Both the position numbers and the translations under genes were made by a program. The notes beneath the pieces were generated by a model. It saw only the letters and a program-made list of their open reading frames with translations. It was not told the DNA's origin and searched no databases. A stretch of 63,184 nucleotides of DNA, the filler included, from Conidiobolus incongruus B7586 (lineage: Eukaryota): NCBI GenBank assembly GCA_000697335.1. It is 12 parts of 12 records of this genome, joined end to end, with 100 filler letters (N's around TTAATTAATTAA, not from the genome) between each part and the next. Parts side by side here need not be neighbours in the genome. Positions count along the whole stretch, not along the records: positions 23,223 to 32,661 come from JNEM01007152.1; 11 more parts are not named here. One strand, written 5' to 3'. Positions 6,089 through 55,417 of this stretch are shown one piece after another. Within the stretch, counting starts at the first letter, position 1. Every line of letters begins with the position of its first letter.

Positions 6089-6462
6089 TATAAATATAGT
6101 GGTAGTTAAACTAATATAGTGTAGAGGAAGATTTAATATAAAAGTAGTGTGGCACAAAACATAGTAATATAATGTGGCTGTAGTGTGCAAGTGTAAACAA
6201 AGTTTAATTAAGCTTCAAACTAGGATGAGTTATTGATATATTAAGATTTATATTAGGTAGTGCTAATATCCTATAATATCAACAAAATATAGTCTCAATT
6301 TTAGAAATAGTGTAAAAGTAAAAATAGTAAGAATTGAGAGGAAAAAAGAAGAACCTAGTTTATTAGATAATTTAATACTATTTATACAATTAATTTAACT
6401 ATATAAGTATAAATTAATCATATAATTTATAGTTAATTGGATTATATGAAAGTGTATATAAG
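6089..6462 (-). repeat. 5' LTR of family A chromovirus (truncated by gap)
   Basis: Ungapped match to 772-1145; adjacent PBS-like sequence at about 6076-6088 (minus strand). Confidence 0.92.
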
Positions 6463-13494: not shown

Positions 13495-14739
13495 TTACAA
13501 AGCTTTTAAAAAAGTGATATTGGAGTTGGATGTTGAGCTATTGCTATGACGATGAAGTTGATCATCAATAGTGATAGCAGCTCCCATTGATAAATATTGT
13601 TCAGATTGTTCACTGAGTCGATTTTTCGTACAGGTCTGATAGTTTAAATAGCTCCTCTGAGATTTGTTCAATAATAAATAATAAATGCCTTTAGATAAGA
13701 TGGTATCAATCCACTGGATTCGAGTTGGTAACCTTGAAGCATTTCCATCCATCAAATCTATTGATAATTGGGATCTACTGGATGGTAGTTCGCGATGGAA
13801 TAAGGTGGGATAATAGGATTTTATCAGGGTCATTTTGGTGGATTTCCAAGCATTACTCACCACAGGGTCGAAGCAGAATACAATTCCAGTAATTATTCCT
13901 CTGCACGATAATGTAACCATTCCTAAAAACCACAGCACTTTACTAACATCCTTATTAATGTAAAAATAAAGTGTTGAAATAAAGGACATAGAAAGCGTCA
14001 AACAGGGGACCATGGGATATAGCAATACTCTAATAACAGTTCGATGGATGATTTTTTCATTCTTTTTTCTTTCTGCCAACTGGGCAGAGCTTTCTCTAAC
14101 ACTCACTCTGAATTTATTTAATTCATGTCGATTGCTGATTAATTTGCATAAAATTGTAACTATTACACCTGTGCAGTATATTACTCCAAATATTATCCAT
14201 CCATACATGACAGAAATTTGCCAAATGATCGATTGTAAACTAGACTCTTGGAAGAACCAGCATGAATTTTCAACTGTGTCATAACCAAAAGCACCAGCTA
14301 GCATTGGAATGCTAGCTATTAAAGCGGCTGCAAGAACTGAAGCGATATAATATAACACTTCTATCCTTCTTGGCAAGTCTCGATGGAATAATAATAACAA
14401 TTGAAGGTTAAGTGCAATCGACATATTAAGGAATAAAGAGCATAAAATGGAGAATATAAATAAAAATCCAGAAATATAACATTGATAGTCTGCATCTAGA
14501 CTTGATATTGTAATATGAGAAATTGCAAAAATTACATCCATTAAAGCAATTCCAATGACTAAATGAAAAGTTGCCCTTCTCTGGGCTTTTTTACCAAACA
14601 TGTAAATAAGGAAAATAACGAATAATACACACAAACCAACACCAATAGAAATAGAATTCATAACATATAGCGTTGATTTGTACACACTATCCCATATCTG
14701 ATTGACTATTTCTTGATCCATTGCTTGCGCATCTGACAT
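13495..14739 (-). CDS. Seven-transmembrane GPCR (cAMP-receptor-like/Git3-type), single exon
   Basis: Seven hydrophobic segments; TM3 Cys (YQCYISG); extracellular FGYD..SCWF; TM6 RVLLYPMV; TM7 CRGIITGIVFCFDP. Likely start MSDAQ at 14739 (the ORF is open to 14838). Confidence 0.85.
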   Translation of the reverse strand: MSDAQAMDQEIVNQIWDSVYKSTLYVMNSISIGVGLCVLFVIFLIYMFGKKAQRRATFHLVIGIALMDVIFAISHITISSLDADYQCYISGFLFIFSILCSLFLNMSIALNLQLLLLFHRDLPRRIEVLYYIASVLAAALIASIPMLAGAFGYDTVENSCWFFQESSLQSIIWQISVMYGWIIFGVIYCTGVIVTILCKLISNRHELNKFRVSVRESSAQLAERKKNEKIIHRTVIRVLLYPMVPCLTLSMSFISTLYFYINKDVSKVLWFLGMVTLSCRGIITGIVFCFDPVVSNAWKSTKMTLIKSYYPTLFHRELPSSRSQLSIDLMDGNASRLPTRIQWIDTILSKGIYYLLLNKSQRSYLNYQTCTKNRLSEQSEQYLSMGAAITIDDQLHRHSNSSTSNSNITFLKAL

Positions 14740-19455: not shown

Positions 19456-19772
19456 TATAACTTAGTTCATCCCTAGGAATCGCTATTATTTCCTTACAAC
19501 AAGAATTATATCAAATTTTCAATTATGTAAAATATTCTTATAATATATTAGATTAGATTTATTTAGGAAATTTTATCGTCAATTCTCGACTAGGAAGACC
19601 CTGCTTTATCCATTATACTAAGCTTCAATTCACATATACATATCATATTATTTTCAATATATAAAAATAGATATATTAAACTTTTGTTTGAAAATTATCA
19701 TAATATACCTTATATATATTGCGAAAATAAAATTATTATACTTTATATAAATATCGTTTGAATATTTATTTA

Positions 19773-20183
19773 TTACCTTGAATTTAAAATAATGGGAAAT
19801 TTTTTAATTTCTGATTTTTCAAACATATTATTAGTTTGAAATAAATAAATATATACAAAGTTAATAGGAAATTATATATTTTTAATATAAACTAAAATTA
19901 ATAAATAAAAATGTAAAATAAGTACCTTATAATTTAACTAAAGCTTAAAAAAAAGCTTGAGTAGCTATTGCTAAACAAAACCTATTGAAATATTACTAGA
20001 AGCCTAAACTTTTACAGCAAATCATTGTAATTGATGAATCTTAGATCTTTATATATAATCCTTTACTAAAACACAAATCAAAATGCTAGATTAAGCCAAA
20101 TCAACCCCCTCTATAAATCCCTTTAAATAAACACTTTGTTAATAAGTGAATGTTAATTATTGTAATGGATTATAATAGTATAT
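19773..20183 (+). mobile_element. Mariner copy, internally deleted, runs into gap
   Basis: TA + TTACCTTGAATTTAAAATAATGGGAAA terminus; encodes *VPYNLTKA..IIVIDES*IFIYNP. Confidence 0.85.
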
Positions 20184-20499
20184 NNNNNNNNNNNNNNNNN
20201 NNNNNNNNNNNNNNNNNNNNNNNNNNNTTAATTAATTAANNNNNNNNNNNNNNNNNNNNNNNNNNNNNNNNNNNNNNNNNNNNTGGAAAATTTAAAAATA
20301 ATTCATTATAATAAAATATTTTTATTAATACTAAAGATATTGATATAAAACCTATATTATTAATTTAAATAAATTGGAATAAAAATTTATTAATTAATTA
20401 TTTTATTAAGAATAATTATATTTTATTAATGAATTATCCAAATATTATAGTTAAATTATAATAATAGATAAAAAATACAAAAAATAAATTTGGTAAATA

Positions 20500-21802
20500 T
20501 TACTTTGTAATTTAAATAATAGGAATTTTTTGCAATTGAAAAAAAATAAACATTTTAATATATAAAAAGTAAAAATAAATATATAATATAAAATCAATAA
20601 TTTCTTTAATCTCTAATAACTTTTTGCTATACTTTTAGCAAAGATCTAATACCTAAAAAACAGTTCTTTTTATTAAAAACTGAAATTTGATGTTTTACAA
20701 ACTAATTAAATTTTCTTGTACAAATTTTTTTTCTTGTAAGCTGGTTTTTTAATTGCCTAAAACAATTATAATCACATAGGTTATAATCTAAGGAATATAC
20801 TAGATATGGTAGTTTTTTCTAGTTATTTTTAATTAAAAAGTTTTTTATAACTTTAAATTTATGTATTTTGTAATTATTATGCAAAATAATAGGTTTTCTC
20901 AAATTATATTGAGAATACCAATTAGAAATAGTTTTATTTAAAAAAGAAATATATAGTTTATTATTAATTGATTTTCCTTTAAAAATTAAATAAGAATAGT
21001 ATATACTATAATAATCTATTACAATAATTAACATTTGCTTATCAACAAAATGTTTATTTAAAAAAATTTGTAGAGGGGGTTGATTTAGCTTAATTTAACA
21101 TCTTGATTTAAGTTTTAGTAAAGGATTACACAAAAAAATCTAAAATTCATCAAATGTAATAATTTACTGTAAAAGCCTTGGTTTTTAGCTATACCTTAGT
21201 AAGTTTTGTTTAATATTAGCTACTTTAGCTTTTTTTTAAACTTTAGTTAAATTATAAAGTACCCATTTTACAATTTTATTGATTAATTTTAATTTAAACT
21301 TTAATATATATAAAATACTTATGTAACTAATATTAAAGTATCTTGATAATTTTTTATTTGAAATAAAAAGGTATTTTTTAATATGTTTTTTTATCTTATT
21401 AACAATTAGAAAAGTAACAATTAAAATTAGTTTTCTAGATTTTAATAGGTTTTAGATAGTTTCTCTCTTAACCTTAAAGTAATTTACCTAGCAATAAATT
21501 ATTGATTTAGATAATACTTCATTACTAAAAGCTGCTTGTAAATTTTAAATAATTTTAAAGGGTTTATGGTTAAGTTTTATTAATACTAAAATAAAAAACT
21601 TTTGATGGTTATTATTTGGTTTAAAAATAATTAAATTAAATAACTAATTTTAAAAAATTATTTTTTTTAATCAAAAAAGTTATTAAATATATATATATAT
21701 ATAATTTAAAACTATTTATTTTCCTATTTGTTTTATATATTTATTTTATTTAAAATTAATAATATGTTTGAAAAATTAGAAATTAAAAAATTTCCTATTT
21801 TA
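20500..21802 (-). mobile_element. Mariner (DD34D) transposon, degenerate
   Basis: Reverse complement of 51612-52923; includes track ORF 20819-21034 (..KPIILHNNYKIHK..). Confidence 0.92.
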
Positions 21803-22695
21803 TTAATANNNNNNNNNNNNNNNNNNNNNNNNNNNNNNNNNNNNNNNNNNNNTTAATTAATTAANNNNNNNNNNNNNNNNNNNNNNNNNNNNNNNNNNNN
21901 NNNNNNNNATAATAAAAATTATAAATATTAACAGTTTTTTTAAAACTTTTTTATATTAATTATAAGAGTTTTTTATTAAAAATTAATATTATTCTTAAAG
22001 TTATAAATAATATTCTTTTTATAATTATTATACCTTAATTTATTATCTTAATATTTTATTTATCTCTTTTATCCTTTTTTGATAACTTTAAGAAAAAAAA
22101 ATTAAATAATATTCCATTTTCTTTCATTGTTTTTTATACTTCTAGAGCTTTTATTTAAAGAAAACAATAATAAGTAAGAGTTATTATTACCTTATTTTTT
22201 ATTATTTAAAAAATTTAGTTCTTTATAGTAGAATTAATTATATAATGAAAAAATTATAGGAGTTATATTAAAAGTTTTAAAAAACTAAATTATTTTATGT
22301 TTTAAAATATTAATTATTATAAACAAAGGGTAATTTTTACCATATTATTTATTTATTAAAACTTATTCAATAATTTTAAATTTATCAATAAAAGTTCTTA
22401 TATAATTAAATATTTTATCATATTTCTTTCTTAAATTCATATAATTTTTTTTTAAAATAGCAATAAAGCTATATATTGTAAAAAACATTTAACTTATTAA
22501 AACACTAAGATTTATAATTTTCCTCCTATCTTAATTTATTAAATATAATTTCTATTAAGTATAATTCAAGGTAGTCATTATTATTATTAATAATATTAAT
22601 AATAGATGACATAAAAGAAAAAAAAGATAAAGCTTAAAAGTATAGTTTTTACTAATAGATATATGTGGTATTTAATCTAAAATAAAAATCATTTA

Positions 22696-25557
22696 TTACT
22701 ATAGAATTAAAGAAATGGGAAATTTTTTAATTTCTGATTTTTCAAACATATTATTAGTTTTAAATAAAAAAATATATATAAAATAAATAAAAAAATAAAT
22801 AGTTTTAAATTACACTAACCTGCAAAAGTAAGTTATAAAATCAAAAACACCTATATTTTTACTAATAACTTGATTAATATTTAATGAAATAAACTTAAAT
22901 TAAATAATTAAAATCTATTATATTTATTAGTTATATATATCATTAAATGATGATATTTAGCTATTAATTGGTTAAAATATAAACCCTTAAATTTTACCTA
23001 AGGTGAGTTATAAATTTGCAGGTTTTTGGTGATAAAAAAAAATTAAAACCTAGTGTATCTACCTTTAGCTTTTCTAACTTCTTTAAGTTTGTAGGGTATA
23101 GAATCAACTAACTTCTTATACANNNNNNNNNNNNNNNNNNNNNNNNNNNNNNNNNNNNNNNNNNNNTTAATTAATTAANNNNNNNNNNNNNNNNNNNNNN
23201 NNNNNNNNNNNNNNNNNNNNNNAGGTTAGGAGATTAAAGAAGCTACTTTATAACTGTTATCTTGTTATTTTTAAGCTATTTGGTAATAGAAGCTGTAGTA
23301 TAACAAGAGGTATTATCTTACTAGAAAATAACATTAGATTTGTTTAACCTATACCATTCAATGGTTTTTTTCAATTCATTGTTCAGAATACTTTAGTACA
23401 TCTCAACATTAATTCCCCCATTAACTTTACAAAGATACCCTACACCTAAAGACAACATACATCCCCAAACAATAATTGACCCACCACTATACTTTTAGGT
23501 AAAATTAACATGATGGTTATAAAGTAATTCTGCATCTTTTCTGAAGTATCTAGCTTTTCTATCAGATCCACTAAAGTATATTTTTGTTTCATCAGACTAA
23601 ATAACCTTACTCTAATTAATTTCAGTTTAATATCAGTAGCAACATTTAAACTCTTGCCTAGCTTTATAATAGGATTTTTTTAGTTGGGGGTGTTTTTTCT
23701 TGAAGTGTGAATGGTATCTATGCTAATATAAAGTACATATAATAGTATCAGTGCTAACTAATATTCTTGTATAGTCTTATAATTCCTGCTATATTTCTAC
23801 AGCAGTACCACACTTGCTTGTATTAACTAACCTATAGATATACTTCTCATCATGTTTATCTATAATCTTAACACACTTAAGTTTAAGTTTAAATGTTTCT
23901 TTATTGCTATTCTTAACAGCTTTAACTATAGTAAACTAGCTAACACTAATAATTCTAGCAATATCATAAGTTGATTTACCTTTTTTATAAAGTTGATTAA
24001 TACACAAATAGATTTTTTTAAAGAGGGATTTAAGTATAATGATACTAATAAAAAAAATTTAGTATATCTGTAAAATATTATATAAAATAATAGTAAAGAG
24101 AGAAAAAAGATATGGTTATATATTGTTAAATATATCCCTTTATCTCAAAAACCCACAAATTTATAACTTACCTTGGTTAAATATTAAAGGTTAATATTTT
24201 TGTTAATAGTTTACTAAATATATCTAAATATATTTATCTATTATTAAATAATATACCTTAATTATATATTATAATTTTAAGTAATCTAATATATACAATT
24301 GTTTTAGTTATTAATTAATATATATATATTTTTGATTTTATAACTCACTTTTGCAGGTTAGTGTATATATATATATAATAATTTTTTTGATTAAAAAAAT
24401 ATTTTTTTTAAAATTAGTTGTTTATTTTAATTATGCTTAAACTAAATAATAACCATCAAAAGTTTTTTATTTTAGTATTATTAAAATTTAACCATAAACC
24501 CTTTAAAATCATTTAAAATTTACAAGTAGTTTTTAATAATAAAGTATTATTTAAATTAATAATTTATTACTAGGTAAATTACTTTAAAGTTAAGAGAAAA
24601 AATACCTAAAACTTGTTAAAATTTAAAAGATTAATTTTAACTATTATTTTTTTAATTGTTAATAAAGTAAAAAAACATATTAAAAAACACCTTTTTATTT
24701 TAATTAAAGAATTTTTAAAATATTTTAATATTAGTTACATAAGTATTTTATATATATTAAAGTTTAAATTAAAATTAATTAATAAAAATATAAAATAAAT
24801 AATTTATAATTTAACTAAAGCTAAAAAAAATTAAAGTAGTTATTGTTAAACAAAACTTACTAAGGTATAACTAGAAACTAAAGTTTTTATAGTAAATTAT
24901 TATAATTAATAAATCTTAAATTCTTTTGTATAATCCTTTACTAAAACATAAATTAAAGTGTTAAATTAAGTTAAATCAACCCCTTCTATAAATTCCTTTA
25001 AATAAATACTTTATTAATAAGTAAATATTAATTGTTATAATAAATTATAATAACATATACTATTTTTATTTAATTTTTAAAGGAAAATTAATTAATAATA
25101 AACTTTATATTTTTTTTAAATAAAACTATTTTTAATTGGTATTCTCAATATAATTTGAGAAAACCTATTATTTTGTATAATAATTGTAAAATACATAAAT
25201 CTAAAGTTGTGAAAAACTTTCTAATTAAAAATAACTAGAAAAAACTACTACATCTAGTATATTCTTTAGATTATAACCTATGTGATTATAATTGTTTTAG
25301 CCAATTAAAAAACTAGCTTACAGGAAAGAAAATTTCTACAGGAAAATTTAATTGGTTTGTGAAACATCAAATTTCAGTCTTTAATAAAAAGAACTATTTT
25401 TTAAGTGTTAGCTCTTTGATAAAAGTATAGCAAAAAGTTATTAGAAATAAAGGAAATTATTAATTTTATAATATATATTTATTTTTATTTTTTATATATT
25501 AAAATGTTTATTTTTTTTCAATCACAAAAAATTCCCATTATTTAAATTACAAAGTAA
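22696..25557 (+). mobile_element. Mariner transposon split by a Tc1 insertion at 22813-24363
   Basis: Both termini present and TA-flanked; the sequence resumes colinearly after the Tc1. Confidence 0.92.
22813..24363 (-). mobile_element. Tc1-family transposon with IR/DR-like ends, inactivated
   Basis: TIR CACTAACCTGCAAAAGT(A/G)AGTTATAAAATCAAAAA at both ends with TA duplication. Minus-strand KVI*SDETKI, KYSGGSIIVWGCM and F**DNTSCY..*LL*SPN. Contains an assembly gap. Confidence 0.95.
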
Positions 25558-26025
25558 TAATTAATATGGAATAAAGTTATACTGCTATAAAATGCAATGA
25601 TAAACCCTTAACCTTATTTTTATAGTTTATGAGAGAAAATTAGTGGATTTTATGAATCAAAAAATTTGGTAGGCTATTATTTTATAACCAATTTTTTCTA
25701 AAACCAAAATCAGTCAAACAAAAAATCAGAAAAGATTGAGCAGATTTGACTAGACTCAATATTTTTATAAATTTTTACCAATTTGATTGATCAATCCCAT
25801 AATAATGAATATCATTGCAAAAATAAATACTTAGTGTAATATGAATAAATAATATTGAAATTTTAAACAGTCTTAATTCAAATTATTAGTTATATTAAAA
25901 AAAGTATTATTCAAAATATTCAGAGTTTTAAATACATCAAAAATAAATAAATATATATTAATAAGAAACTATTATCATAAATATATCAACAATAAAATCG
26001 AACTGTTAAAAATAATCAACAAAAT

Positions 26026-29000
26026 ATGTCTAACAGTCCGTTTCTAAGTTTTCAACCAACAGCTTCGGAACAAGCTTACTTCACCCAACTGTTCGGAATA
26101 GTCGACGTTCACGGAAAGGGTGTCGTCAATGGGATGCAAGCTGTACCTTTCTTTCGTAAATCGGGTTTAGATGGAGCTACCTTAGGCAAAGTAACTTTTA
26201 TTCGTTGACATATATATTATTAAATACTAATAATGTTGTAATAGATTTGGCAATTAGCCGACCAAAATAATGAAGGGTTCCTAAAATTATCGAATTTTAT
26301 GGTGGCTCTGAAATTAGTCGCATTAGCTCAGAATAATTTGGGTATTGAATTGAAGAATTTGGACATTCAGACACCTTTACCCCAATTTGAAAATATGGTC
26401 ACTCCTAAAAATGCGAGACCTGAAAGTATTGCAGTTGGTAGTAGTCCTCACTTTGGTGGAAATACTAGCGCTAATAATAATCAGAAGTTGAATCCGCCTT
26501 TGACGCAGATTGTAGCTGACAAGTATTTAAATATTTTTATGAAAGCAAGTCAGGATGGAAATATTCTGGAGGGAAATTCTGTCAAAGCAATTATGATGAA
26601 GAGTCAGTTACCGGTCGATCAACTCAAGAATATTTGGAGTTTAGCGGACTTTGGCAACAAGGGTTACTTAGATGCTAAGGAATTCGTTATTGCTATGTAC
26701 TATGTTGAAGGGTTGATGAGTCAGACTATAACCGATCTTCCTGTAGTTTTGCCGCCTCTGTTGTCTTCAACTGCTCAGTCGCTGGTTAATAGCTCGACCG
26801 TATTGTCTTTGAAGAAATCGTCATTTTCACCCCCTCAAAGAATGGGTTCAATTCGTCAATCCAGTATTCCTAGTATGACCTCTCCTCCCAATCCTTTGTC
26901 TATTACACCATCTTATACTTCTATGGATTCCATATTTATGGGACATAATAAAACTGGTAATGATGAAACTTGGGCAATCTCTCAAGAAGAACAAGTGAAA
27001 TTTTCTAACTTTTTCGAAACGACTATCCAAGGCCAAGATAAGAACTATTTAACGAGTGAAGAAGCTTACGAATTCTTCGCTAGATCTAAATTATCTAAGC
27101 CAGTCCTTGCTCATATATGGTATTCCAATTATACACATTTATTATAAATTTATTAATATATTTTATTTATAGGGAATTGGCTGACATTACAAAGAATAAT
27201 ACATTGTCCAAGGATGAATTCATTTTGGCTATGCATTTAATTTATCAAAAATTAGCTGGTAACCCTTTACCTGATGATCTCCCAAAAGATTTGATCCCTC
27301 CTTCATTGAGAACTTCAACACAAAGTAATTGATAATAATGCCTTCAAGTAAATAAATTATTAATATTCCTTTAGGTTCAATGGAAAACGAATTCGATTTA
27401 ATGATGATGGGTGGTGATGCCAGTTCTTTGGATCTTCATAAATCATTATCTCCTGGTACGTCGCGCATCATGCCTTCTGGATCTCAAACGTTTCCTCGTA
27501 TCAAATCCACAGTTGCAGCACCTACATCTTTTGAGGATATTATTAGCAATAATAGGAAGACATTCTACCAACCTTCTAGCATGTCACCTATTAATTTACC
27601 TATAAGCACTCCTTCCCAGCCCAGTGCGGAAGATATTCGCCAAAAACAGGATATCATCGATACGCATGAACAAATCATCCATTATACTAAACTCCTTGCT
27701 GAAATTCAGCCTAAGAACCAGCATCTCGAGTCACAAATAAATGACTTATCATCTAAAAAGCAAACAATCATGCAACAGATGGAGACTTTGAATGCTACTC
27801 TCAAACGTGAGAGGGATGCATTTGACAATAAGTCAAATCGCTACAATCAACAATTGGTACCTGAATTAGAGCAAGCTCAAGGCAAAATCCAGGAGTTACA
27901 TACCAAACTTGCTCCTATTAGGGAAGAACGTCAAACCCTTACAGCGGATATTGAAAGGTTTAAAACTCATTCTATTCAATATAAGTTCCATATTAACAAA
28001 GCTACCGAAATGATTAAACTCTTGAAGCAGAAGCTTGAAAAGCGCGCTGAAGAGGCGAGACTTGCTGAAGAAGCCAGGAGGCTTGAGGAAGCTAAGAAAA
28101 CTGAAGATGCTAAATTGGCAGAAAGTCAAAAGCAGGCATCTCAACTCCAATATTCTAAGTCTACTGGAGGAGCTGAATCCAGAGCTATCACCAATGCTGA
28201 GTTATCTGAATCTCCAGAATCTCACAAAGATCAACCACCTGAAGGCCCTAAAGAAGCTACTACTGCTAATGACGATTCCAATCCCTTCGAAGAAGAGTCT
28301 CCAGTTGTTTCATCTCCTGCCTCTGACCCATTCGCCAGAATCATTTCTAAGAAGTCAGCTCAGCCTCCAAGGCCTGCTCGTCCTCCTAGAAACAATGTTC
28401 CCCCTGCCCAACCCCAGACTCAACCCAGCCAAATTCCCGATTTTGCCAATTTTGAAGCCCAATTCCCAGTACCATCATCCACTCCCGATGTTCCTGCCGA
28501 ATTTGAAGCCAACTTCCCAATTGCTGGCCCCATTGTTGAAACTCCAATCGAAGAAAAGACTCCCGTCAGAAGACCTCATCAGATCGACGTCATCAAAGAC
28601 ATTGATGGCCTTACCAAGGCCTTTGAAAACTTCAAACCCGAAACCGATTTCATCCAAATCAAAGTTCTGAGCAATTTCGACCCCTCTAGCAAATCACCAT
28701 TTGACCCCAGCTATTTGCAAATTTTCAACGTTGATTTTGTTCCTAATTTCGACGAAGATTTCCAGCCTGCTCAACCAACCAACCAGCATTCAAGACCTTC
28801 CGAAAATCATGTTATTGCCGGTCCTTCATCCTTGTTTTTGAGTGATAATAACGATCCCTTCAAATCCAACGCACCCAACTTCGAGCCTACCCACGATGAA
28901 GGATGGACCAATTCTGCTCCTTCCAATCTGGATTTGGATCAAGTATTTGGTGGCAAGCGTGAATCCATCGCTGGTTCCATTAAATTTGAAGATATTTTTG

Positions 29001-29521
29001 GGGATGCTTTTACAGTACCTCCAGAAATTGCTGAAGTTGATAATGAAGAAGCTTCAACTGACGATCATAATAAGGAGATCAATCCCGAAGAATCTGTGAT
29101 ATTACCCCCAGCTCCTACAGAGGATGGTAAGTCTTCCAATACTTTGGAACCGGTCCCAGAGAGTCTCAATAGTAACAATGTTCAAAATGATCCAACATTT
29201 GAATATCCTCCATTACCTTCATCTCCATCACTTTCCGAACCCAATTCATTACAAGACAGATCCTCAAATATTCTGGTGACAACTCCTAACCTAGAAAAAG
29301 CTCAAGACAAATCAATTGACATTGCAGTAAATACTCCTATTCCAGATACTTCGTCACCAGAACTATCTGATGCAAAGGTGCCATCCCCTGTGGATATGGA
29401 TCGAACGATATCTTCCACAGCTCACGAGATCAACTTAGCAGATGGTACTGTTGAATTGGAACCCATCGATCCCAAGGATGAAGGCATCACTTCTTCAACT
29501 TCAGCTGTTAAACAAGATTGA
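26026..29521 (+). CDS. EDE1: Ede1/Eps15-like endocytic scaffold; exons 26026-26190, 26245-27119, 27173-27324, 27375-29521
   Basis: Three EH domains (LGKIWQLAD, LKNIWSLAD, LAHIWELAD), coiled coil, Pro-rich region, NPF/DPF motifs; GT-AG introns keep the frame. Confidence 0.9.
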
Positions 29522-29611
29522 TTTTCTGTTCAAGCTGATTTCTTTGATATAATTAATAATAAAAATATCATAATATATTATTTCATAAATCTCTTTTATT
29601 AAATGTTTTTT

Positions 29612-30893
29612 CTATTTCAATTTCAGCCCCTTCAAAACTTTCTCAGCAATCTCCGAATAAGCTTCGGCAACCTTGGATTTGGGCTCCATAACAGTAATAG
29701 GAGTACCACAATCCGATAATTTCATAATATTGGGATCTAAGGGAATGTCACCAAGTGAATCGATATTGAATCCACTCGCCATTTTGCTGCCGCCGTCCGT
29801 GCCAAATATATGAGAGGGTTTTTGGCAGTGAGGACATGTGTATAGGCTCATGTTTTGGACTACTCCTAATAACTAATGAAAGATACTATGATTAAGCAAC
29901 TCATGAGAATTTGTTTAATTACAAAACTTATAGGAGTATTCACTTTTCTAAGCATTTCAACACCTTTCCTAGCGTCGATTAATGCTAAATCTTGAGGGGT
30001 TGTTACAATGACAGCACCTAAATGCCCCATTAATCACCCAATAATTCAATTTAATAATGGCCAATTTACCTGATATGGGTACCAACTGGCTCATACTTAA
30101 CTGTACATCACCAGTACCTGGCGGTATATCAACAACAAGAATATCTAAACCATCCTGCCAATCTACTTCGTAAACGAGTTGCTGCAAAGCTTTCATCACC
30201 TAATTTCCAATAAATATTTTATTTGTTGAAAAGTTTCCATAGTTGTTACTATTAATCCTCTCCACACAATAGGGGCACCTTCAGGTACTAGAAAACCCAT
30301 TGACATTGCAGGAATACCATAATTTGTCAAGGGCAATAAATGACCTAATACCAGTGAATAAAACATCATAGCTTATACTAATAATAATCTACCTTTATCA
30401 TTAAACTCTGGTTCTCCCTTCAAATTCAACAACTTGGGAATGGAGGGTCCAAATAAATTGGCATCTAGTAAAGCAACTTTGAATTTGTGACAATTTAAGG
30501 CAATTGCCAAATTGACTATTATTAACCATAAATAACTGTTAAATGAATAATGTAATATTTGTTCTTACCTGAAGTAGTAGATTTCCCAACCCCACCCTTA
30601 CCACTCGCTATGGTAATAACGTGTCTGACTTTTGATATTCCTTGCTTTTGGGGTGATCCTCTCCTAGGATTCTTCCTAGCAGGCAGTGGATATGATTCAA
30701 ATCCTCCTTTCCTTGGTAGACCCTTAATTCAATTGTTAATAAATTATTATAATTTTAATTTTTTCATATTTACTAAAAGGTTTTTATGATAAATTTTAGT
30801 TAAAAAAGTAAAATTTCTTAAAATTAAATTATTTGTATTTTGTTAACTTTTAATAGGTTTAATTAATTTATTTATGGTGTGTAAAGATCTCAT
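29612..30893 (-). pseudogene. IND1: Mrp/NBP35-family Fe-S ATPase (Ind1/NUBPL), seven exons, disabled
   Basis: ASGKGGVGKST, MSMGFL..VWRG, DIPPGTGD and QNMS..CPHC motifs. In-frame TAA at codon 17 (30843-30845). Last intron donor reads ATAAGT (29931-29926). Confidence 0.85.
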
Positions 30894-31091: not shown

Positions 31092-31361
31092 CTAATTCTT
31101 CTCTCTAACATTAATCATATCCAAATCCTCAATCCCTAAACTATTGGGCGTATCTTCAGGATGAATCCAATCGCCATCAAATAAGAAACATAACTGATTA
31201 ATATCTTTCCCCTTTTTATCACAATAAGCTTCCATAAGTTTTTTTAAAGGTGTCAGGCGGTGGATTTTAAAAGTGATTTTGCTAGTTTCGAGGTCAACTA
31301 CTTCTATATTGATGTGATTTGGATTGTTGGTATTAGGTGGGACTGTTGAATTATTGGACAT
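31092..31361 (-). CDS. SUMO-like protein lacking the C-terminal diglycine (possibly a pseudogene)
   Basis: FKIHRLTPLKKLMEAYC, FLFDG and DTPNSLGIEDLDMI match the SUMO fold; ends VREKN*. Confidence 0.8.
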   Translation of the reverse strand: MSNNSTVPPNTNNPNHINIEVVDLETSKITFKIHRLTPLKKLMEAYCDKKGKDINQLCFLFDGDWIHPEDTPNSLGIEDLDMINVREKN

Positions 31362-32157
31362 AATTATAAGTTTTAGAATGTATCAGATGATCATGGCATA
31401 CTTGGAATCAATCATTTATAATTTGGAAAAGAATTGAATTTGATTATTATGGGTTTAACATGAATATCAAGTTTATAAAGTTTTTATCCAAATCACATTC
31501 CAATAAAAATTTTCATAGATTGTTAATATGAATAATTAGTTGTATAGTTTTACTGAAAAATAAAGATATACATCAATTATGACCACGAGTTATATTTAAT
31601 TTGGTAAACATATTAGTAAAAATTATTTGCTAACTTTCTAATTGATCTTTGAATTATGTCATTAATATTTCTTTTAAAAACTATACAAAACGAATTTTGT
31701 TTATATTAAAACGTTGATCTTTGAATAACGTTAAATTTATTTTATCAAAGATGGTAATTTATACAATAAAGTTATTAAAAACAGGGTAAAGTTTATAATG
31801 GACACAATGTATGTATTTATTGTGTTGAAAATAGTTGTAATAAACAATATACTTGGTATTGAATTTTATATTCAATAATATATTTCTTTTGATAAAAAAT
31901 TTTAAGAGATATAATGATTAATATTTAATCTATATAATGATTGTATATATGATATCTAATTCTTGAAAACAATGGTGTCATAGACATGTTATCAACCATT
32001 TAATCAAATACTATTATATCCATATTAATATACTGTTTAGCAATAAATGTTAATATTTATTATTGTCAAATAATTTTATATTTAACGAATTTTTTTATTT
32101 AAATTAGATTTTTACTAAAACAAAGTAGATTTTGAATTAGTTTGAAAAATTACAATA

Positions 32158-32661
32158 TTACCTCAGAAATAAAAAATGGGAAATTCTTCAAATTCTCATT
32201 TTTCAAGCATATTTTTTGTTTAAAAAATTAAATTTATAGAGTTTAATATTTACTTTAATTATATTTAAGCTGAATAATTATCATTGAAAGTTTTTTATCT
32301 AGATATTAATAAAACTTAACCATAAAGTTTTTAAAATCTTTTAAAATATATAAGAAATTTATAAAAATAATATTTTATTTATTAGTAAACATAATATTAT
32401 ATAGCTAAAATAACTATATAGAATTTAATAAATAATTTTTAATCAGTGTTTGTTTAATAATTAATTAAATAAAAATTTATAATGAAAAATACTTTTTGAT
32501 TATAATCAAAAAATAATTAATATATTATAATATTAGTTATATAAGTATAAAATATAAAGTTTAAATTTAGATTAATTAATATAAATAGAAAACAAGTATC
32601 TTATAATAAAATTATTCCTTAAACAAAAGCTAAAATAATTATAATAAAATTAACCTTAATA
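32158..32661 (+). mobile_element. Diverged mariner 5' part
   Basis: TA + TTACCTCAGAAATAAAAAATGGGAAA terminus; colinear with other copies up to the gap. Confidence 0.75.
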
Positions 32662-32763
32662 NNNNNNNNNNNNNNNNNNNNNNNNNNNNNNNNNNNNNNN
32701 NNNNNTTAATTAATTAANNNNNNNNNNNNNNNNNNNNNNNNNNNNNNNNNNNNNNNNNNNNTA

Positions 32764-33583
32764 CACTAACTTGTAAAAATAAGTTATAAAATCAAAAACA
32801 CTTATATTTTTACTAATAACTTGATTAATATTTAATGAAATAAATTTAAATTAAATAATTAAAATCTATTATATTTATTAATTATATATATTATTAAATA
32901 ATGATATTTAGTTATTATTTGACTAAAATATAAACTTTTAAATTTTACCTAGGGTAAGTTATAAATTTGTAGGTTTTTGGTGATAAAAAAAATTAAAACC
33001 TAATATATCTACCTTTAGCTTTTCTAACTTCTTTAAGTTTGTAGGGTATAAAATCAATTAACTTTTTATATTAAGAAAGGTTAATTTTATTCTATGTTTC
33101 TTAAATATATTCTTAAAGTTAATTTAAATTTTTAACTAGGGGGAAAGCTTTAATAACTTTTTTTAATTAATCCTAAAAGTGTTTAATTAGATTAAAGTTA
33201 AAAAATTAAAGAGGTTATTTTATAATTATTATCTTGTTATTTTTAAGCTATTTGGTAATAAAAGTTATAGTATAGTAAGAGGTATTATCTTACTATAAAA
33301 TAATATCAGATTTATTTAACTTATATTATTTAATAGTTTTTTTCAATTTATTATTTAGAATACTTTAGTATATCTCAGTATTAATTCCTTTATTAACTTT
33401 ATAAAGATACCTTATACTTAAAGAAAACATACATCCCCAAATAATAATTAACCTACTATTATACTTTTGGGTAAAATTAACATGATGGTTATAAAGTAAT
33501 TTTACATTTTTTCTGAAGCATTTAACTTTTTTATCAAATCCACTAAAGTATATTTTTGTTTCATTAAACTAAATAACCTTACT
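32764..33583 (-). mobile_element. Tc1 copy (3' half), interrupted by an LTR element
   Basis: TA + CACTAACTTGTAAAAATAAGTTATAAAATC; colinear with 22813-23612. Confidence 0.92.
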
Positions 33584-34020
33584 TATAACAGGGCAATGTA
33601 TACAAGTTGTTTCAATGTGAACAGTGTGGGAAAAAAGTCCTTGTTTATTTGGCAATGGTTCCTATTTTTATATGTAAAAGTTGGTGAGGGTTCAGAGGTA
33701 AAATTAGACAAGATAAGATCAAGTAGATAAAAGAGATAAGATAAGGTAAGCAGATATGATTGACAGTGTCACGATGATGACAAAGTGATCTGATCTATGA
33801 CACTCCCCTCAGATTGAGGTGTCCTTATTAGGAGACGCTCTAATCTTTGAATGCTTCTCAGCGTAGGCATGATAGGCATTGGTCTTTTTAACGCTATTAT
33901 AGCGTTCCCAAGTAGCTTCATTTTTAGGGTATCCTTTCCATTGGACGAGGTATAGATCTTGGTCATAATAGTGTCTATGGCTGAGGATTTTATCGACGAT
34001 GAAAGGATGATCTTGTTGAT
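33584..34020 (-). mobile_element. 3' end of a second chromovirus (family B): chromodomain, PPT and about 220-bp LTR
   Basis: Minus frame FIVDKILSHRHYYDQDLYLVQWKGYPKNEATWERY..* (stop 33809-33811); PPT gaggggag followed by TGTCATAG at 33802; LTR about 33584-33802. Confidence 0.88.
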
Positions 34021-35498: not shown

Positions 35499-36032
35499 TT
35501 ATTCCTTTTCAGGATATTCATCGCCGGCATAATGGCTGTTGTAGCTATCATCGTAATCATCATTGTCATAATCGTCTCCATAGGACCATCCACCATATCC
35601 TTTAGAGTACCCATAGTCTCCTTTTCCTCCATAATGCTTTCCTCTTCCATAATCTTTTCCGTATCCATCATATCCATCATATCCACCATATCCACGACGG
35701 TAGTAGGATGGACGGTAATCCTTGTTATATCCATATCTACCTTTGCCACCATAGCTATCATAATCATCATAGTCATCATAATCACCATAGCCTTTCCATC
35801 CACGACGATAGTATGATGGACGGTAATCTTTTCTATAGCCATCATAGTCATAGTCATCATATCTGTCATAACCTCCATAGCCTCCATAGCCTCCATAACT
35901 CTTCCAACCACGACGATAGTAAGAAGGACGATAATCCTTGGAATATCCATAATCATCATAACCACCATAGTTCTTATAACCACCAGCCAAAGTGGGTAAG
36001 ATTAAAGTCAAAGTAGCCAAGAATTTGTTCAT
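35499..36032 (-). CDS. Secreted Gly/Tyr/Asp-rich repeat protein, copy 1 (177 aa)
   Basis: Signal-peptide-like MNKFLATLTLILPTLA; three KDYRPSYYRRG repeats; upstream TATAAATA. Confidence 0.88.
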   Translation of the reverse strand: MNKFLATLTLILPTLAGGYKNYGGYDDYGYSKDYRPSYYRRGWKSYGGYGGYGGYDRYDDYDYDGYRKDYRPSYYRRGWKGYGDYDDYDDYDSYGGKGRYGYNKDYRPSYYRRGYGGYDGYDGYGKDYGRGKHYGGKGDYGYSKGYGGWSYGDDYDNDDYDDSYNSHYAGDEYPEKE

Positions 36033-36510
36033 TTTAAAACTGAATTGAATGATTAATTACTAAACAGATGAAATCGATATTGTATAATGCTACTATCAAT
36101 TGCATATTTATATCTGTTTGAATTGCAATTAGTCAGTTTCGTGCCAAAATTTCCATGAAAATCATAATCAATTATTATTTGCACTTGAAAATTTCGATTA
36201 ATGATTTTAAATTATTTTATCCTTTATGCTAAACAAATCAATTTGTTTGAATTTCGTTGATTTTCGAATTTATTAATCATCGATTTATTACTTGTTTATC
36301 AATTTCTGAAATTAGTGTAATTGCGAGTAGGTTTACTGACAATGACAATAAAAACAAGAAAAGTCTTTAGTAATATATTGAAAATTTTATATTTAAAATC
36401 CTGTTATAGTGATATATATATTATGAAATTATTATATAATATCTACATGCTTTGAGACATTTTATTCTAGAGTTCGGTTCTTTATTCTTATTATAATCAT
36501 TAAAAATGAA

Positions 36511-38613: not shown

Positions 38614-39457
38614 TATAAATATAAATTAAATTCAATTGATTATAATCTCTTATATAAATTCAATTAAAATAAAAATATACTAAAGATGGAAATAAACTAT
38701 AAAGAGCAAAATGGCTTTTATAATTTTCAGGATTTAATATTACTATATATAAATCTTATTTTCAATATTCAGGTAATAAGTTAAAAATTTTATTATTATT
38801 TATTTGAATCACTGCAAGAGATTTGATAGTGAAATTTGAATCTTAGATTTTTTATGAAAAGTTAATTCAATCAGAATTGAATTTAATTTTATTTTTTATG
38901 TCATCAAAATTAAAAATATCGTTAGATTAATACATTTATTAAGAGTTTTGATTGATTTATATTGAAAATATTTTGATCAAAAGCATAATCCAATCACAGC
39001 CCAATAGTAAAATGATGGACATTATTATTCGTTCAATCTGATATCCTCTCAATTACATACTTGTCATTAATAGAAAAGAGCATAAAGAGCGCATGTTAAT
39101 AAATCGGGTATTTAAACAATCTATTTCAAATAAATCAAATATAGAGAAAGGAATAAATTTGAAATGCTAACAAATTACAGATTAATTGCCTCTTTGTAGA
39201 AAAGATTTGCCAAATTTAAATTTTTGTAATCAAAAGAATGAAAATCAGTTGAAATTTTGAGTTGAATTGGGATGATTGAAAATAGAGTAGAATATGAAAA
39301 AAATATTGTAAATAATAATTGATTATGATTTTCATGGAAATTTTGGCACGAAACTGACTAATTGCAATTCAAACAGATATAAATATGCAATTGATAGTAG
39401 CATTATACAATATCGATTTCATCTGTTTAGTAATTAATCATTCAATTCAGTTTTAAA

Positions 39458-39982
39458 ATGAACAAATTCTTGGCTACTTTGACTTTAATCTTACCCACTT
39501 TGGCTGGTGGTTATAAGAACTATGGTGGTTATGATGATTATGGATATTCCAAGGATTATCGTCCTTCTTACTATCGTCGTGGTTGGAAGAGTTATGGAGG
39601 CTATGGAGGCTATGGAGGTTATGACAGATATGATGACTATGACTATGATGGCTATAGAAAAGATTACCGTCCATCATACTATCGTCGTGGATGGAAAGGC
39701 TATGGTGATTATGATGACTATGATGATTATGATAGCTATGGTGGCAAAGGTAGATATGGATATAACAAGGATTACCGTCCATCCTACTACCGTCGTGGAT
39801 ATGGTGGATATGATGGATATGATGGATACGGAAAAGATTATGGAAGAGGAAAGCATTATGGAGGAAAAGGAGACTATGGGTACTCTAAAGGATATGGTGG
39901 ATGGTCCTATGGAGACGATTATGACAATGATGATTACGATGATAGCTACAACAGCCATTATGCCGGTGATGAACAATATTAA
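39458..39982 (+). CDS. Secreted Gly/Tyr/Asp-rich repeat protein, copy 2 (174 aa)
   Basis: Identical to copy 1 except for the last residues (DEQY vs DEYPEKE). Confidence 0.88.
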   Translation: MNKFLATLTLILPTLAGGYKNYGGYDDYGYSKDYRPSYYRRGWKSYGGYGGYGGYDRYDDYDYDGYRKDYRPSYYRRGWKGYGDYDDYDDYDSYGGKGRYGYNKDYRPSYYRRGYGGYDGYDGYGKDYGRGKHYGGKGDYGYSKGYGGWSYGDDYDNDDYDDSYNSHYAGDEQY

Positions 39983-42926: not shown

Positions 42927-43850
42927 ATGGTTTTGAGCTATATTTTCAACTTATTTAGCGGTTGGGGTGGAAGACACAGTGGTAGTTATACTTCCAATCG
43001 ACAGCAACAAGCTTTGGTCCAGCAAATTCAAGAACAGGTACTTGAACAGGTAGTTAGCTTAGCTGATATTATTGAGCACATTGCTGAGCACCAGCTCGAA
43101 CGCCCCGATCCTGGGCATTTGCACAAGAAGTTGTTGCGCGTGACTTCCGAACAAGACCACATTATCAACAACGTTCAATTGATTGTCAACACGTTGAATG
43201 TTGATATCAAGTATCAAACCCCCCAAGAGACTCAATATAAGCAACAGATTGCTAATCGTTTGGTACAAATTGCTCAATTGAACCAGCAGTTGTATCACGT
43301 TTTGGTTTCTGCTAAAAACACTCTCAATCAGCAGCACGTACGTGACAATGCCAAGCAAGCTATTCACTTAACTCAGCTCATCCGCTTGTATGCTCAAGAT
43401 TTTGAACAATACTTGCAACACGTCGCCCGCTTTGGTGTCGACTATGAGAATTTGTCGCAGCATGGCACTCAGGGTCAAATGTATGGATCCCAGCCCTATG
43501 ATCACCATCATCACAGATTTGGTTTACACAATTTAGCTAGTCACCTTCCTGGCTTCCATAGCCATGAGTTTGGCGCCAGCCAATTCGGAGGTCATCATCA
43601 CCACAGATTTGGCATTCACAACTTGAGCCATAAATTCGGCAACAAGTTTGGATTGGGCCACCACGGCCACCCCTCCAACAGCTCCTGGGGAAATGAATTC
43701 AACCACAGCAACCAATCCAGCTCCATTTTCGGCCAGGGATTCGGTGGTCAATTCAGCCAGCAAGGTGGTCACCATGGTCAATTCGGAGGAAAGCACCCCA
43801 ACGATTTCAACCTTAACAACCCCGTTTTCGGTACTGGTGAACTCATTTAA
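42927..43850 (+). CDS. Unknown protein: Gln-rich helical N-terminus and His/Gly/Phe-rich low-complexity tail
   Basis: 307-aa ORF in a GC-rich island, good start context (aaaaATG), upstream CATATAAA. Confidence 0.8.
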   Translation: MVLSYIFNLFSGWGGRHSGSYTSNRQQQALVQQIQEQVLEQVVSLADIIEHIAEHQLERPDPGHLHKKLLRVTSEQDHIINNVQLIVNTLNVDIKYQTPQETQYKQQIANRLVQIAQLNQQLYHVLVSAKNTLNQQHVRDNAKQAIHLTQLIRLYAQDFEQYLQHVARFGVDYENLSQHGTQGQMYGSQPYDHHHHRFGLHNLASHLPGFHSHEFGASQFGGHHHHRFGIHNLSHKFGNKFGLGHHGHPSNSSWGNEFNHSNQSSSIFGQGFGGQFSQQGGHHGQFGGKHPNDFNLNNPVFGTGELI

Positions 43851-44518: not shown

Positions 44519-46612
44519 TTATAAAAATTCTTGGAGTAAGGGTTGCAAACTGTACCAAACATCTCTGACTACACAATGGCGCTTAGAACCTTCTCGAGTG
44601 GCATCAATGAGCATGTCGAGTTGTCGCTGATGGATAGCTCTTGTGCTGCCTAGTGTATCCTGACAGTTTTTGATCATGTACACGTGGACTCGGATGAGGT
44701 TGATCACACACCACCATTTGTAAGTGTCAAGGCATTGGATGTATGAAGCCATCATGGTTTCCATTTGGAAGGATCCTAAACTTGCTGCTATTTGACACTT
44801 TTGGAGAGGGTTCAACTGATGCCAGGTATTCATCGAGAGTGCTGTTTGGGATTCAAATTGATGCAAGGGCAAGTGGTTGGTATCGATGAGTGGCATATTG
44901 ATCTCAATCAAAAGAGACCAAAAATTAACATGCAAATTGACAGAGAATATCGAACTGGGTACTAGTTGTTCATTGTGGGAGAATATATGGAAGATATCAT
45001 CAGAATAACTGGTCTTAAAGATGTTGGGTAAGCGTCTGTACCATTCAATGACAAATCTTTCAAGGCTTAAGCAGCGCTTTTGGTAAGTTTCCAACTTGTT
45101 CTCGTTATTATCATATACTGAACGCTGCGAGATGAAGGGAAATTGATTACATGGGGCTCGTTTGATGAAGGTGGTGAACTCCAGTCGAAGAGTAGTCATT
45201 TGGGAGATGAGGTAGATAAAAGAAGCTTTTGCTGTGAAGTAAGTGGCAAGGAGTTCTGAATTAAACTGACTGAGATTGAGCTGTGGTGGGAATTCGGCTG
45301 AAGTTTTAGGGAGTGACATGGATGTATCATGGATATTAAAAAAGTTGGGCCAGCCTACACTATGAGCTTTAGTGATATCTCTACAGGCAGCTGTCCACCA
45401 CATTCGCTTACGCATTTCTCGAATTCTAGGTGGGAGATCGGGGCGATCGATATGTAGTCCAAGCTGAAGTGCATAGCGGTAAGCAATGCCCTGGTAGTAC
45501 CAACCTCTTTCCATGAGACGATCATAGGATAAAATATCTAGACAGGGACAAATTAATAGAAGTGCTTGCACTAGAAAAAGGGAAGGCTTGTTATAAATAC
45601 TGCACATGTATTTTTTAATCAATCGCCGGAATGGTAGATATAAAACCTGTGCTTCCCCTGGAGGATAGCATCCTGAACCAAGGGTGCAAACAACCCCAAA
45701 TAGGAGCAAAAAGTCGGGCTGTCTGCTGTTACTGAGCCAATGGTTGCAGAATGCCACAGGATCTATTACTGGGTGGTGTGGATGCAAGTATTGGAAAAAC
45801 CAGGTAATCAATTGATTTATTTTCCAGAAGGGAATTTCCGATATATCTTGGAAGATGTCAGAAGTAATTTTACCAAGCTTCATCTTCCTGACTGGAGGAT
45901 TAAGCACAAATGGAGATGATGAAGATAAATCAAGCGTTATAACGAAGTGCACATCGCTTTTTATGTTAAATAGTGTTGAAAAACGCTTGCCTGATAATTG
46001 AATAGGTGAAGTAATACATACACGTGACTTTGAACTTCTTGAAGCTTGAACTAAAGAATTGTTAGCATTAGATGCTGGTAAATTTGTATTTATATCAAAT
46101 GGTGTCAAAATAACAAAATTGCGTTCGTTGTTATTAAAAATAGGAGGACTGTTACTTTGAGAGTATGGCTGTAAAGGTGGTAAAACTGAAGAGAGTTTGT
46201 GCGGTGGTGAAATAGTACCAGTAGACTCTGAAGATGAGCTGCTAGAATCCGAACCTATAGAATACTTGTCCTGATATCTTGAGGGTTTTCTTTTTCTTAA
46301 AGTTGTATCAAGACATTCTATATTAGATTTAACGCAATTTTGGCATCGGCCAGTATCGGTCGGTGTACAGCGTTTTTTATGGTGTCTACACCAATCACAG
46401 GCTTTGCTATAGGGTTTTCTTTTCTTGACAGGTTTTTTAGCTTCGGTTTTATTTTTAGGTAATTCATTATTTTCATTTTGAATAGATGAACTTGGAGAAC
46501 ACTTCATCTGAGAAGTTGCAGAATTAGAAGTAAACTTAGTAATATCAGTCATCAAAGTTGCCTCAGAATATTTATTAAATAATTCTTGAGGAAAAGAGTA
46601 TTGTTGAATCAT
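44519..46612 (-). CDS. Zn2Cys6 fungal transcription factor with a fungal-specific middle homology region
   Basis: ACDWCRHHKKRC..CQNCVKSNIEC; FFQYLHPHHPVID; ALQLGLH..EMRKRMWW. Confidence 0.95.
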   Translation of the reverse strand: MIQQYSFPQELFNKYSEATLMTDITKFTSNSATSQMKCSPSSSIQNENNELPKNKTEAKKPVKKRKPYSKACDWCRHHKKRCTPTDTGRCQNCVKSNIECLDTTLRKRKPSRYQDKYSIGSDSSSSSSESTGTISPPHKLSSVLPPLQPYSQSNSPPIFNNNERNFVILTPFDINTNLPASNANNSLVQASRSSKSRVCITSPIQLSGKRFSTLFNIKSDVHFVITLDLSSSSPFVLNPPVRKMKLGKITSDIFQDISEIPFWKINQLITWFFQYLHPHHPVIDPVAFCNHWLSNSRQPDFLLLFGVVCTLGSGCYPPGEAQVLYLPFRRLIKKYMCSIYNKPSLFLVQALLLICPCLDILSYDRLMERGWYYQGIAYRYALQLGLHIDRPDLPPRIREMRKRMWWTAACRDITKAHSVGWPNFFNIHDTSMSLPKTSAEFPPQLNLSQFNSELLATYFTAKASFIYLISQMTTLRLEFTTFIKRAPCNQFPFISQRSVYDNNENKLETYQKRCLSLERFVIEWYRRLPNIFKTSYSDDIFHIFSHNEQLVPSSIFSVNLHVNFWSLLIEINMPLIDTNHLPLHQFESQTALSMNTWHQLNPLQKCQIAASLGSFQMETMMASYIQCLDTYKWWCVINLIRVHVYMIKNCQDTLGSTRAIHQRQLDMLIDATREGSKRHCVVRDVWYSLQPLLQEFL

Positions 46613-55119: not shown

Positions 55120-55417
55120 TCATTATCTTTTTCTTTTAAAATGAATCTAGTTATGTTTATTATTAATTATCATTAAACTAATAAACTTATTAAAATAATT
55201 ATTAAAATTTTAAAATAAATAATTAATACTTATATTAATACTTATCAATTAAATTAAAATAATTATATTTAATAATTTGAATATTTATTCAATATTTTTA
55301 TTGATAAATCAATAGGTTTTTATTTTTATTTCATCAATTATAACAAATATCTTAATTTAATAGTTATTTTAAAATTTTAAATTAACTTTTCTTTAGATAT
55401 TATTGAACTTTAATTTA

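What the first reader, a model, noticed from the sequence alone, without database searches (positions are those of the whole stretch)
29612..30893. Host Ind1/NUBPL gene disabled by the same C>T/G>A process
Seen: TAA at codon 17 (CAA expected). Exon 1 ends HKNLL|GLPR where fungal Ind1 typically has HENPLGLPR (GAA>AAA, CCT>CTT). LLDANLFGPS replaces DxD (GAT>AAT) and WRGLI replaces WRGLM (ATG>ATA). The last donor is ATAAGT; restoring GTAAGT gives [13 protein letters not shown] found no frameshifts. Most hits are at CpA/TpG while many CpGs survive, density is highest at the 5' end, and adjacent Ede1 looks untouched. Known: Ind1 is needed for complex I Fe-S assembly. Inference: a duplicated gene caught early in a RIP-like event, or leakage from a neighbouring repeat. 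This lightly hit gene gives the clearest view of the mutator's preferred context.
Basis: partly seen in the sequence, partly recalled or inferred. Interest (0 to 1): 0.85.

Follow-up and report, generated by a model that had tools for sequence, protein, structure and literature searches.

The report
Dead spare copy of Ind1 gene
This fungal gene for a mitochondrial complex I assembly factor is broken by a stop codon and a lost splice site, but the same sample holds a second, about 90% identical copy with the splice site intact, so it is likely a spare copy decaying after duplication, with probable extra loss of CpG sites rather than classic RIP.

Summary
All named lesions are real: TAA at codon 17, E37K, P39L, D111N, M164I and an AT donor in intron 6, with no frameshift. 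Contigs of four runs of one sample match the window letter for letter. The same runs hold a second Ede1-Ind1 copy, 89-92% identical at equal depth, with a GT donor and the conserved residue at all 3 listed amino-acid differences. The window copy is therefore very likely a duplicate pseudogene, in a Conidiobolus-like fungus.

The proposed CpA/RIP cause is not supported. Of 4 lesions polarised directly, 1 is G>A, 2 are T>C and 1 is G>T. The window holds the A/T state in only 33 of 77 transitions between the copies. Against C. coronatus, hit rates are CpG 5/15, CpA 4/50, CpC 4/72, CpT 2/53 and reverse transitions 11/207, so only CpG is in excess. The 5' half keeps 2 CpGs where composition predicts 16.

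Nearby transposons are CpG-free, and their closest copies differ almost only by transitions. The best reading is ordinary decay of a redundant copy plus probable CpG methylation-deamination. The second copy's 5' half was not seen.

The parts
30774..30893 (-). Ind1 exon 1: predicted mitochondrial presequence, premature TAA at 30845-30843, E37K and P39L
   Evidence: letters matched by contigs
30569..30722 (-). Ind1 exon 2 with the intact P-loop; candidate changes P53L, L63S, V78I
   Evidence: PF10609, E 4e-5, below the curated cut-off
30393..30515 (-). Ind1 exon 3: G106A, D111N (30459, CpG context; inferred branch point with the second copy), L129F (G>T against the second copy)
30250..30344 (-). 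Ind1 exon 4, ending in M164I
30070..30199 (-). Ind1 exon 5 with M189I
29932..30017 (-). Ind1 exon 6: F230L and I235T, both T>C against the second copy
29873..29931 (-). Intron 6 with an AT donor; the second copy has GT. Retaining the intron gives a stop inside it
29612..29872 (-). Ind1 exon 7 with the CxxC motif and stop
   Evidence: PF10609, E 3.8e-22
29416..30451 (.). Stretch over which pieces of a second copy (89-92% identical, equal depth) were laid: Ede1 3' end, intergenic gap and Ind1 exons 3-7. 29733-29848 was not resolved in the shown pieces
   Evidence: table 8
26027..29521 (+). Ede1/Eps15-like EH-domain gene with open frames; its 3' end is part of the duplicated block
32087..33770 (.). 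Nearest CpG-free repeat stretch upstream of Ind1 (0 CpG, 11 expected)

Best explanation
The window's Ind1 carries an early stop and a lost splice donor while a second, about 90% identical Ede1-Ind1 copy in the same sample keeps the donor, so it is likely a redundant duplicate that was released from selection and is decaying, probably with extra CpG-to-TpG loss in its 5' half. Shown: the lesions; the second copy over exons 3-7; lesions of mixed type (G>A, T>C, G>T); no overall A/T excess in the window copy; CpG as the only enriched context. Inferred: the second copy is complete and supplies Ind1 function; the block arose by segmental or whole-genome duplication or by hybridisation; once silent, the spare copy acquired cytosine methylation at CpG and lost those sites by deamination, the same CpG-first decay that emptied the neighbouring transposons. 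The donor lesion is not at a CpG, the ancestral codon of the stop is unknown, and neither needs a special mutator.
For:: second-copy pieces with 35/317, 17/164, 26/306 and 17/160 other letters; X1 depths 42.4 vs 38, 39.4 vs 35.6 and 33.9 vs 30.3; both 1-nt gaps fall in introns; of 10 listed Ind1 coding differences 7 are synonymous, and at the 3 nonsynonymous ones the second copy matches C. coronatus; 9 departures at 102 conserved columns, none of 125 homologs has as many; contig ends fit k=31 at all 4 checkable ends and place the next branch exactly at 30459 (D111N). CpG 5/15 vs other C contexts 10/175, Fisher p=0.003; reverse transitions 11/207; exons 2-4 hold 2 CpGs vs 15.1 expected, other genes o/e 0.61, Poisson p=0.005 (region chosen after looking). 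CpG-context transitions are 3 of 11 with the A/T state in the window vs 0 of 18 in the second copy, p=0.045; unique intergenic DNA keeps CpG (21/25.8 and 24/29.7), so CpG loss is not genome-wide.
Against: Only 40 of 105 difference rows were shown. None of the 20 listed Ind1 transitions is at a CpG; the 3 directly seen CpG differences are at the Ede1 3' end. Over 30322-30421 the second copy shows no CpG at the 12 listed sites (of 17), so CpG poverty there is not shown to be specific to the window copy. The CpG tally rests on 5 sites polarised against one outgroup at protein level, and some may be shared by both copies. Phasing between bubbles was not checked. All four runs are one sample. No methylation data were seen.
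Confidence: 0.68

Rival explanations
1. Purely neutral decay of a duplicate under AT-biased mutation; the CpG excess is chance or shared by both copies.
For: A neutral AT-biased model predicts 3-5 C>T/G>A per T>C/A>G at conserved codons, and the observed ratio is no higher (15 vs 11 rare-state candidates). No CpG-context change among the 20 listed Ind1 transitions.
Against: CpG 5/15 vs 10/175 (p=0.003); 2 CpGs vs 16.4 expected in the 5' half; 3/11 vs 0/18 asymmetry between the copies.
Confidence: 0.17
2. A RIP-like, CpA-directed event or leakage from an adjacent repeat disabled the gene.
For: Repeats in the window show near transition-only divergence (LTR pair 24:0; another pair 50:2). In a four-copy family CpA sites keep C in all copies in 6 of 85 columns, CpT in 30 of 114 and CpC in 6 of 8. 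The donor, E37K, M164I and M189I are at TpG. The 5' end faces a repeat 1.2 kb away. The unseen 5' half has most of the candidates.
Against: CpA 4/50 is not enriched (3.9 expected); 3 of 4 directly polarised lesions are not C>T/G>A; 33 vs 44 A/T states; 77 transitions to 28 transversions between the copies; Ede1's start keeps its CpGs next to a repeat; a 667-nt inverted gene duplicate 3 kb apart is 99.7% identical.
Confidence: 0.1
3. The second copy is 5'-truncated, so the sample may lack a working Ind1, or the window is a mosaic of two copies each carrying some lesions.
For: No second-copy contig was laid above 30458; bubbles are unphased in the contigs.
Against: The branch falls exactly on an invariant Asp codon. 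The second copy is conserved wherever it is seen. The tool warns that a filter drops some records, so a hole proves nothing. Three shared stretches between bubbles are only 37-47 nt, which short reads would likely span (read length not on record).
Confidence: 0.04
4. The gene works after RNA editing, or the lesions are assembly errors.
For: Several lesions are G>A, which A-to-I editing could mask (own knowledge).
Against: Contigs match the window exactly. The C>T, T>C and G>T lesions could not be reversed by A-to-I editing. A better copy exists.
Confidence: 0.01

Closest known systems
Ind1/NUBPL (Mrp/NBP35 family, Pfam PF10609); nearest protein P0001, Conidiobolus coronatus
   Same: N-terminal extension, HENPLG-like motif, P-loop, WRG, DxPPGTGD and CxxC; 71% identity over the last exon. 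Loss of Ind1 lowers complex I to about 28% in Yarrowia (PMC6196649, passages).
   Different: Premature stop, AT donor and 9 departures at highly conserved columns. The human D105Y variant is likely the first Asp of DxD (my reading of L104/D105); the window lesion is the second Asp.
Duplicate pseudogenes after segmental or whole-genome duplication or hybridisation (duplications reported in Mucoromycotina and Basidiobolus; PMC10079182 and PMC10386755, passages)
   Same: One copy conserved and the other relaxed; the duplicated block spans two neighbouring genes.
   Different: The extent and origin of the duplication are unknown. The passages read gave no such report for Conidiobolus.
CpG-type repeat hypermutation (Pucciniomycotina TpCpG, PMC3318451, abstract; methylation then deamination linked to Masc2-like Dnmt1, PMC4352252, passages)
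   Same: Repeats stripped of CpG; CpG is the enriched context in the lightly hit gene.
   Different: Here it is in a Zoopagomycota-like genome. The repeats also lose CpA more than CpT and far more than CpC. Among Ind1's five CpG candidates the base 5' of the C was not tested for the TpCpG rule.
Neurospora-type RIP and RIP leakage into genes (Leptosphaeria AvrLm genes, as cited in PMC6152946, passages)
   Same: A gene beside AT-rich decayed repeats, with several G>A changes at TpG.
   Different: No CpA excess, no one-way transition bias between the copies, and an unmutated linked duplicate nearby.

Membership tests
Ind1/NUBPL | PF10609 NUBPL P-loop NTPase with P-loop, WRG, DxPPGTGD and CxxC motifs | tested here: met
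   the best named hits are NUBPL/IND1-type proteins
Ind1/NUBPL | N-terminal presequence-like extension without the Cys cluster of Nbp35 (family distinction recalled) | tested here: met
   35 residues before the HENPLG-like motif, none acidic and none Cys; no targeting predictor or tree was run
Ind1/NUBPL | Intact reading frame and splice sites | tested here: not met
   TAA at codon 17, next Met at residue 146, AT donor
Duplicate pseudogene | A conserved second copy in the same genome | tested here: met
   exons 3-7 only, one sample; allele versus paralog not resolved
Duplicate pseudogene | Relaxed selection on this copy | tested here: met
Duplicate pseudogene | No functional transcript | not testable with these tools
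   no RNA holder listed; this is no evidence either way
Canonical RIP | One-way C>T/G>A excess in the affected copy | tested here: not met
   33 vs 44; covers the 3' part only
Canonical RIP | CpA preference | tested here: not met
   4/50, 3.9 expected; composite RIP index -0.38 over the gene
Canonical RIP | Linked duplications over about 400 nt are mutated (threshold recalled) | tested here: inconclusive
   a 667-nt inverted duplicate has 2 differences, but it may post-date the last sexual cycle or be partly an assembly artefact
Canonical RIP | RID methyltransferase and premeiotic timing | not testable with these tools
   no genome is held
CpG methylation-deamination of repeats (MIP-like) | CpG-specific C>T excess | tested here: inconclusive
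   enriched, but on 5 candidate sites and 3 direct sites
CpG methylation-deamination of repeats (MIP-like) | 5mC on the locus and a Dnmt1-type enzyme | not testable with these tools
   no methylome or genome

The most novel reading that the evidence does not exclude
This Conidiobolus-like fungus has a duplicated genome and a repeat-defence mutator outside Dikarya with the order CpG > CpA > CpT >> CpC. The mutator also acts on one copy of duplicated host genes, so it steers which duplicate is lost, and Ind1's 5' half is a snapshot of its first, CpG-only stage.
Probability: 0.2. Interest if true: 0.65.

Novelty: new member of a known kind. Interest (0 to 1): 0.3.

Why it matters
As a single locus this is ordinary: a spare housekeeping gene dying after duplication, with no sign that complex I is lost. 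It matters as a pointer to two things. First, a second, 10% diverged copy of a two-gene block suggests a duplicated or hybrid genome. Second, the CpG-free, transition-dominated transposons are copy-to-copy evidence of repeat hypermutation in an entomophthoralean-like fungus. PMC11105155 (passages) says RIP has been observed only in Dikarya and offers dinucleotide-index evidence for other Entomophthorales. If duplicated genes are hit CpG-first across the genome, the pairs would allow a direct test of the mutator's context and of how genome defence biases gene loss.

Tried and rejected
No whole genome is held, so the genome could not be searched for complex I genes, DNA methyltransferases or the second locus. 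65 of 105 difference rows stayed unseen, including all 26 in 29998-30304. A protein search with exon 2 found 24 weak hits and no close fragment of the second copy. A search for a close Ede1 ortholog as a control gave only 26-36% identical proteins, so no Ede1 baseline was made. Look-ups of earlier findings returned nothing. A first exon model with wrong boundaries was corrected. P0008, a fused 474-residue hit, was left out of the alignment (125 of 126 proteins used). L129F was first counted as C>T and removed once the second copy showed G>T. A downstream restart after the stop was rejected because the next Met is residue 146. The lower depth above 30429 (17 vs about 35 in X1) varies between runs and is read as likely AT bias, not copy number; this was not tested. 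Literature searches turned up no description of CpG-type hypermutation or duplicate decay in Conidiobolus. I read passages of 2 of the 20 papers listed and no supplements, so this is weak evidence of absence.

Full report
Observation. The minus strand of 29612-30893 gives a seven-exon gene of 969 coding bases with six introns of 48-59 nt and no frameshift. Five donors are GT; the sixth, at 29931, is AT. Codon 17 is TAA and the next Met is residue 146. The nearest protein is from Conidiobolus coronatus (P0001, 71% identity over the last exon), and Pfam PF10609 matches. Against 125 homologs the window departs from consensus at 9 of 102 columns that are at least 90% conserved; the homologs have a median of 1 and a maximum of 8. 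Contigs from four runs of one sample match the window with no other letters across the donor, M164I/M189I and the 5' half. An assembly error is therefore unlikely, although the sample may be the window's own source.

Second copy. The same runs hold a second sequence at about equal depth, in pieces 29416-29732 (35 differences), 29849-30013 (17 plus one gap), 29998-30304 (26 plus one gap) and 30292-30451 (17). It covers the end of Ede1, the gap and Ind1 exons 3-7, so a block was duplicated and not only the gene. Only 40 of 105 difference rows were shown. Among them the donor is GT. Of 10 Ind1 coding differences 7 are synonymous, and at the other three (L129F, F230L, I235T) the second copy has the C. 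coronatus residue. Contig ends fit a 31-letter word at all four checkable ends, which places the next branch at 30459, the invariant Asp changed to Asn in the window (inference). Above that point no second-copy contig was laid. The tool warns that records can be filtered out, so the 5' half is unseen, not shown to be absent. Allele of a hybrid and paralog cannot be told apart here.

Mutation type. Of four window lesions with the base change seen directly, one is G>A (the donor), two are T>C and one is G>T. Over all 105 places there are 77 transitions and 28 transversions, and the window holds the A/T state in 33 of the 77 (p=0.25). The four pieces account for 95 differences, so a few of the 105 may come from unrelated AT-rich contigs. 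Single-step changes from the C. coronatus residue to a residue found in at most 10% of homologs were set against opportunities of the same kind: CpG 5/15, CpA 4/50, CpC 4/72, CpT 2/53, reverse transitions 11/207. Non-CpG forward changes (5.7%) match reverse changes (5.3%); only CpG stands out (p=0.003). A neutral AT-biased model predicts 3-5 forward changes per reverse change at conserved codons, so no extra CpA mutator is needed. These candidates are polarised at protein level against one outgroup, and some may be shared by both copies. The ancestral codon at position 17 is unknown; the aligned residue is Lys.

CpG. Thirteen of the gene's 15 CpGs lie at or below 30175. The 5' half has 2 where composition predicts 16.4, while other genes in the window average o/e 0.61 and unique intergenic DNA about 0.8. 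The region was chosen after looking, so its p of 0.005 is optimistic. Among listed transitions between the copies, 3 of 11 with the A/T state in the window are at CpG, against 0 of 18 in the second copy (p=0.045). Against this reading, those three are at the Ede1 3' end, none of the 20 listed Ind1 transitions is at CpG, and the second copy shows no CpG at the 12 listed sites of 30322-30421.

The repeats. The window has CpG-free runs of 7.6, 7.2 and 6.2 kb; the first holds decayed reverse transcriptase and integrase fragments. An LTR-like pair (771-1144 and 6088-6461) differs by 24 transitions and no transversion, and another pair by 50 and 2. More diverged pairs carry many transversions. In a four-copy family, C survives in all copies at 6 of 85 CpA columns, 30 of 114 CpT columns and 6 of 8 CpC columns. 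A repeat-directed C>T process is therefore real here, with CpG exhausted and CpA next. Leakage is not general. Ede1's first 500 nt keep 17 CpGs about 0.5 kb from such a repeat, 8 CpGs lie between Ind1 and its nearest CpG-free repeat, and a 667-nt inverted gene duplicate is 99.7% identical.

How it likely works. Duplication made Ind1 redundant and one copy was released from selection. It gathered ordinary mutations in both directions, including the stop and the donor loss. Its 5' half probably also became CpG-methylated and lost those sites by deamination. The lesions, the second copy and the spectrum are shown; the function of the second copy, the methylation and the order of events are inferred.

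Known context. Ind1 loss lowers complex I in Yarrowia (PMC6196649, passages). CpG-type hypermutation of repeats is described in Pucciniomycotina (PMC3318451, abstract) and attributed to methylation followed by deamination, as distinct from RID-dependent CpA/CpT RIP (PMC4352252, passages). 5mC confined to repeats is reported for Phycomyces and for Linderina in Zoopagomycota (PMC11258239, passages). RIP leakage into genes is known in Leptosphaeria (as cited in PMC6152946, passages). Index-based signs of RIP are reported in Zoophthora radicans with caveats (PMC11105155, passages). Genome duplications are reported in Mucoromycotina and Basidiobolus (PMC10079182; PMC10386755; passages). No supplements were read; they could bear on duplication in Conidiobolus.

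Verdict. The lesions are real and the gene is very likely a duplicate pseudogene. A CpG overlay is probable but rests on few sites. Interest 0.3; new member of a known kind.

Noticed in passing
window 771-6461, 19755-25999, 50549-57755: Decayed repeats with no CpG over 6-7.5 kb; the first holds a Ty3-like element with RT and integrase remnants. The LTR-like pair differs by 24 transitions and 0 transversions; remaining C loss follows CpA > CpT >> CpC. This is copy-to-copy evidence of repeat hypermutation outside Dikarya and is more interesting than the Ind1 locus itself.
   Followed up: partly
window 31092-31361 (-): Uninterrupted SUMO-like ORF (PF11976, E 5e-20) ending 200 nt upstream of the Ind1 start. 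It lacks the C-terminal di-glycine, and TGT and TGG codons stand where Arg is seen in some solved SUMO chains, consistent with CpG loss. Possibly a decayed retrocopy; no second copy was laid there.
   Followed up: partly
window 35517-36183 and 39307-39973: Inverted 667-nt duplicate of a gene for a Gly/Tyr/Asp-rich protein with a hydrophobic N-terminus; 2 differences, CpGs kept.
   Followed up: partly
window 26027-29521 (+): The Ede1-like protein is shorter than most hits and has no obvious C-terminal UBA domain, which 8 of 13 hits carry (the C-terminal exon was not scanned). Both copies stop at the same codon.
   Followed up: no
window about 9400-10128 (+): Intron-containing glutathione peroxidase gene (PF00255); some usually conserved positions look altered (recalled motifs, not tested).
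   Followed up: no
window 13495-14736 (-), 42927-43850 (+), 44519-46612 (-): Long open ORFs: a GPCR-like multi-pass membrane protein (no Pfam hit), a Gln/His/Gly-rich protein, and a Zn-cluster-like transcription factor judged by eye. Used only as CpG controls.
   Followed up: no
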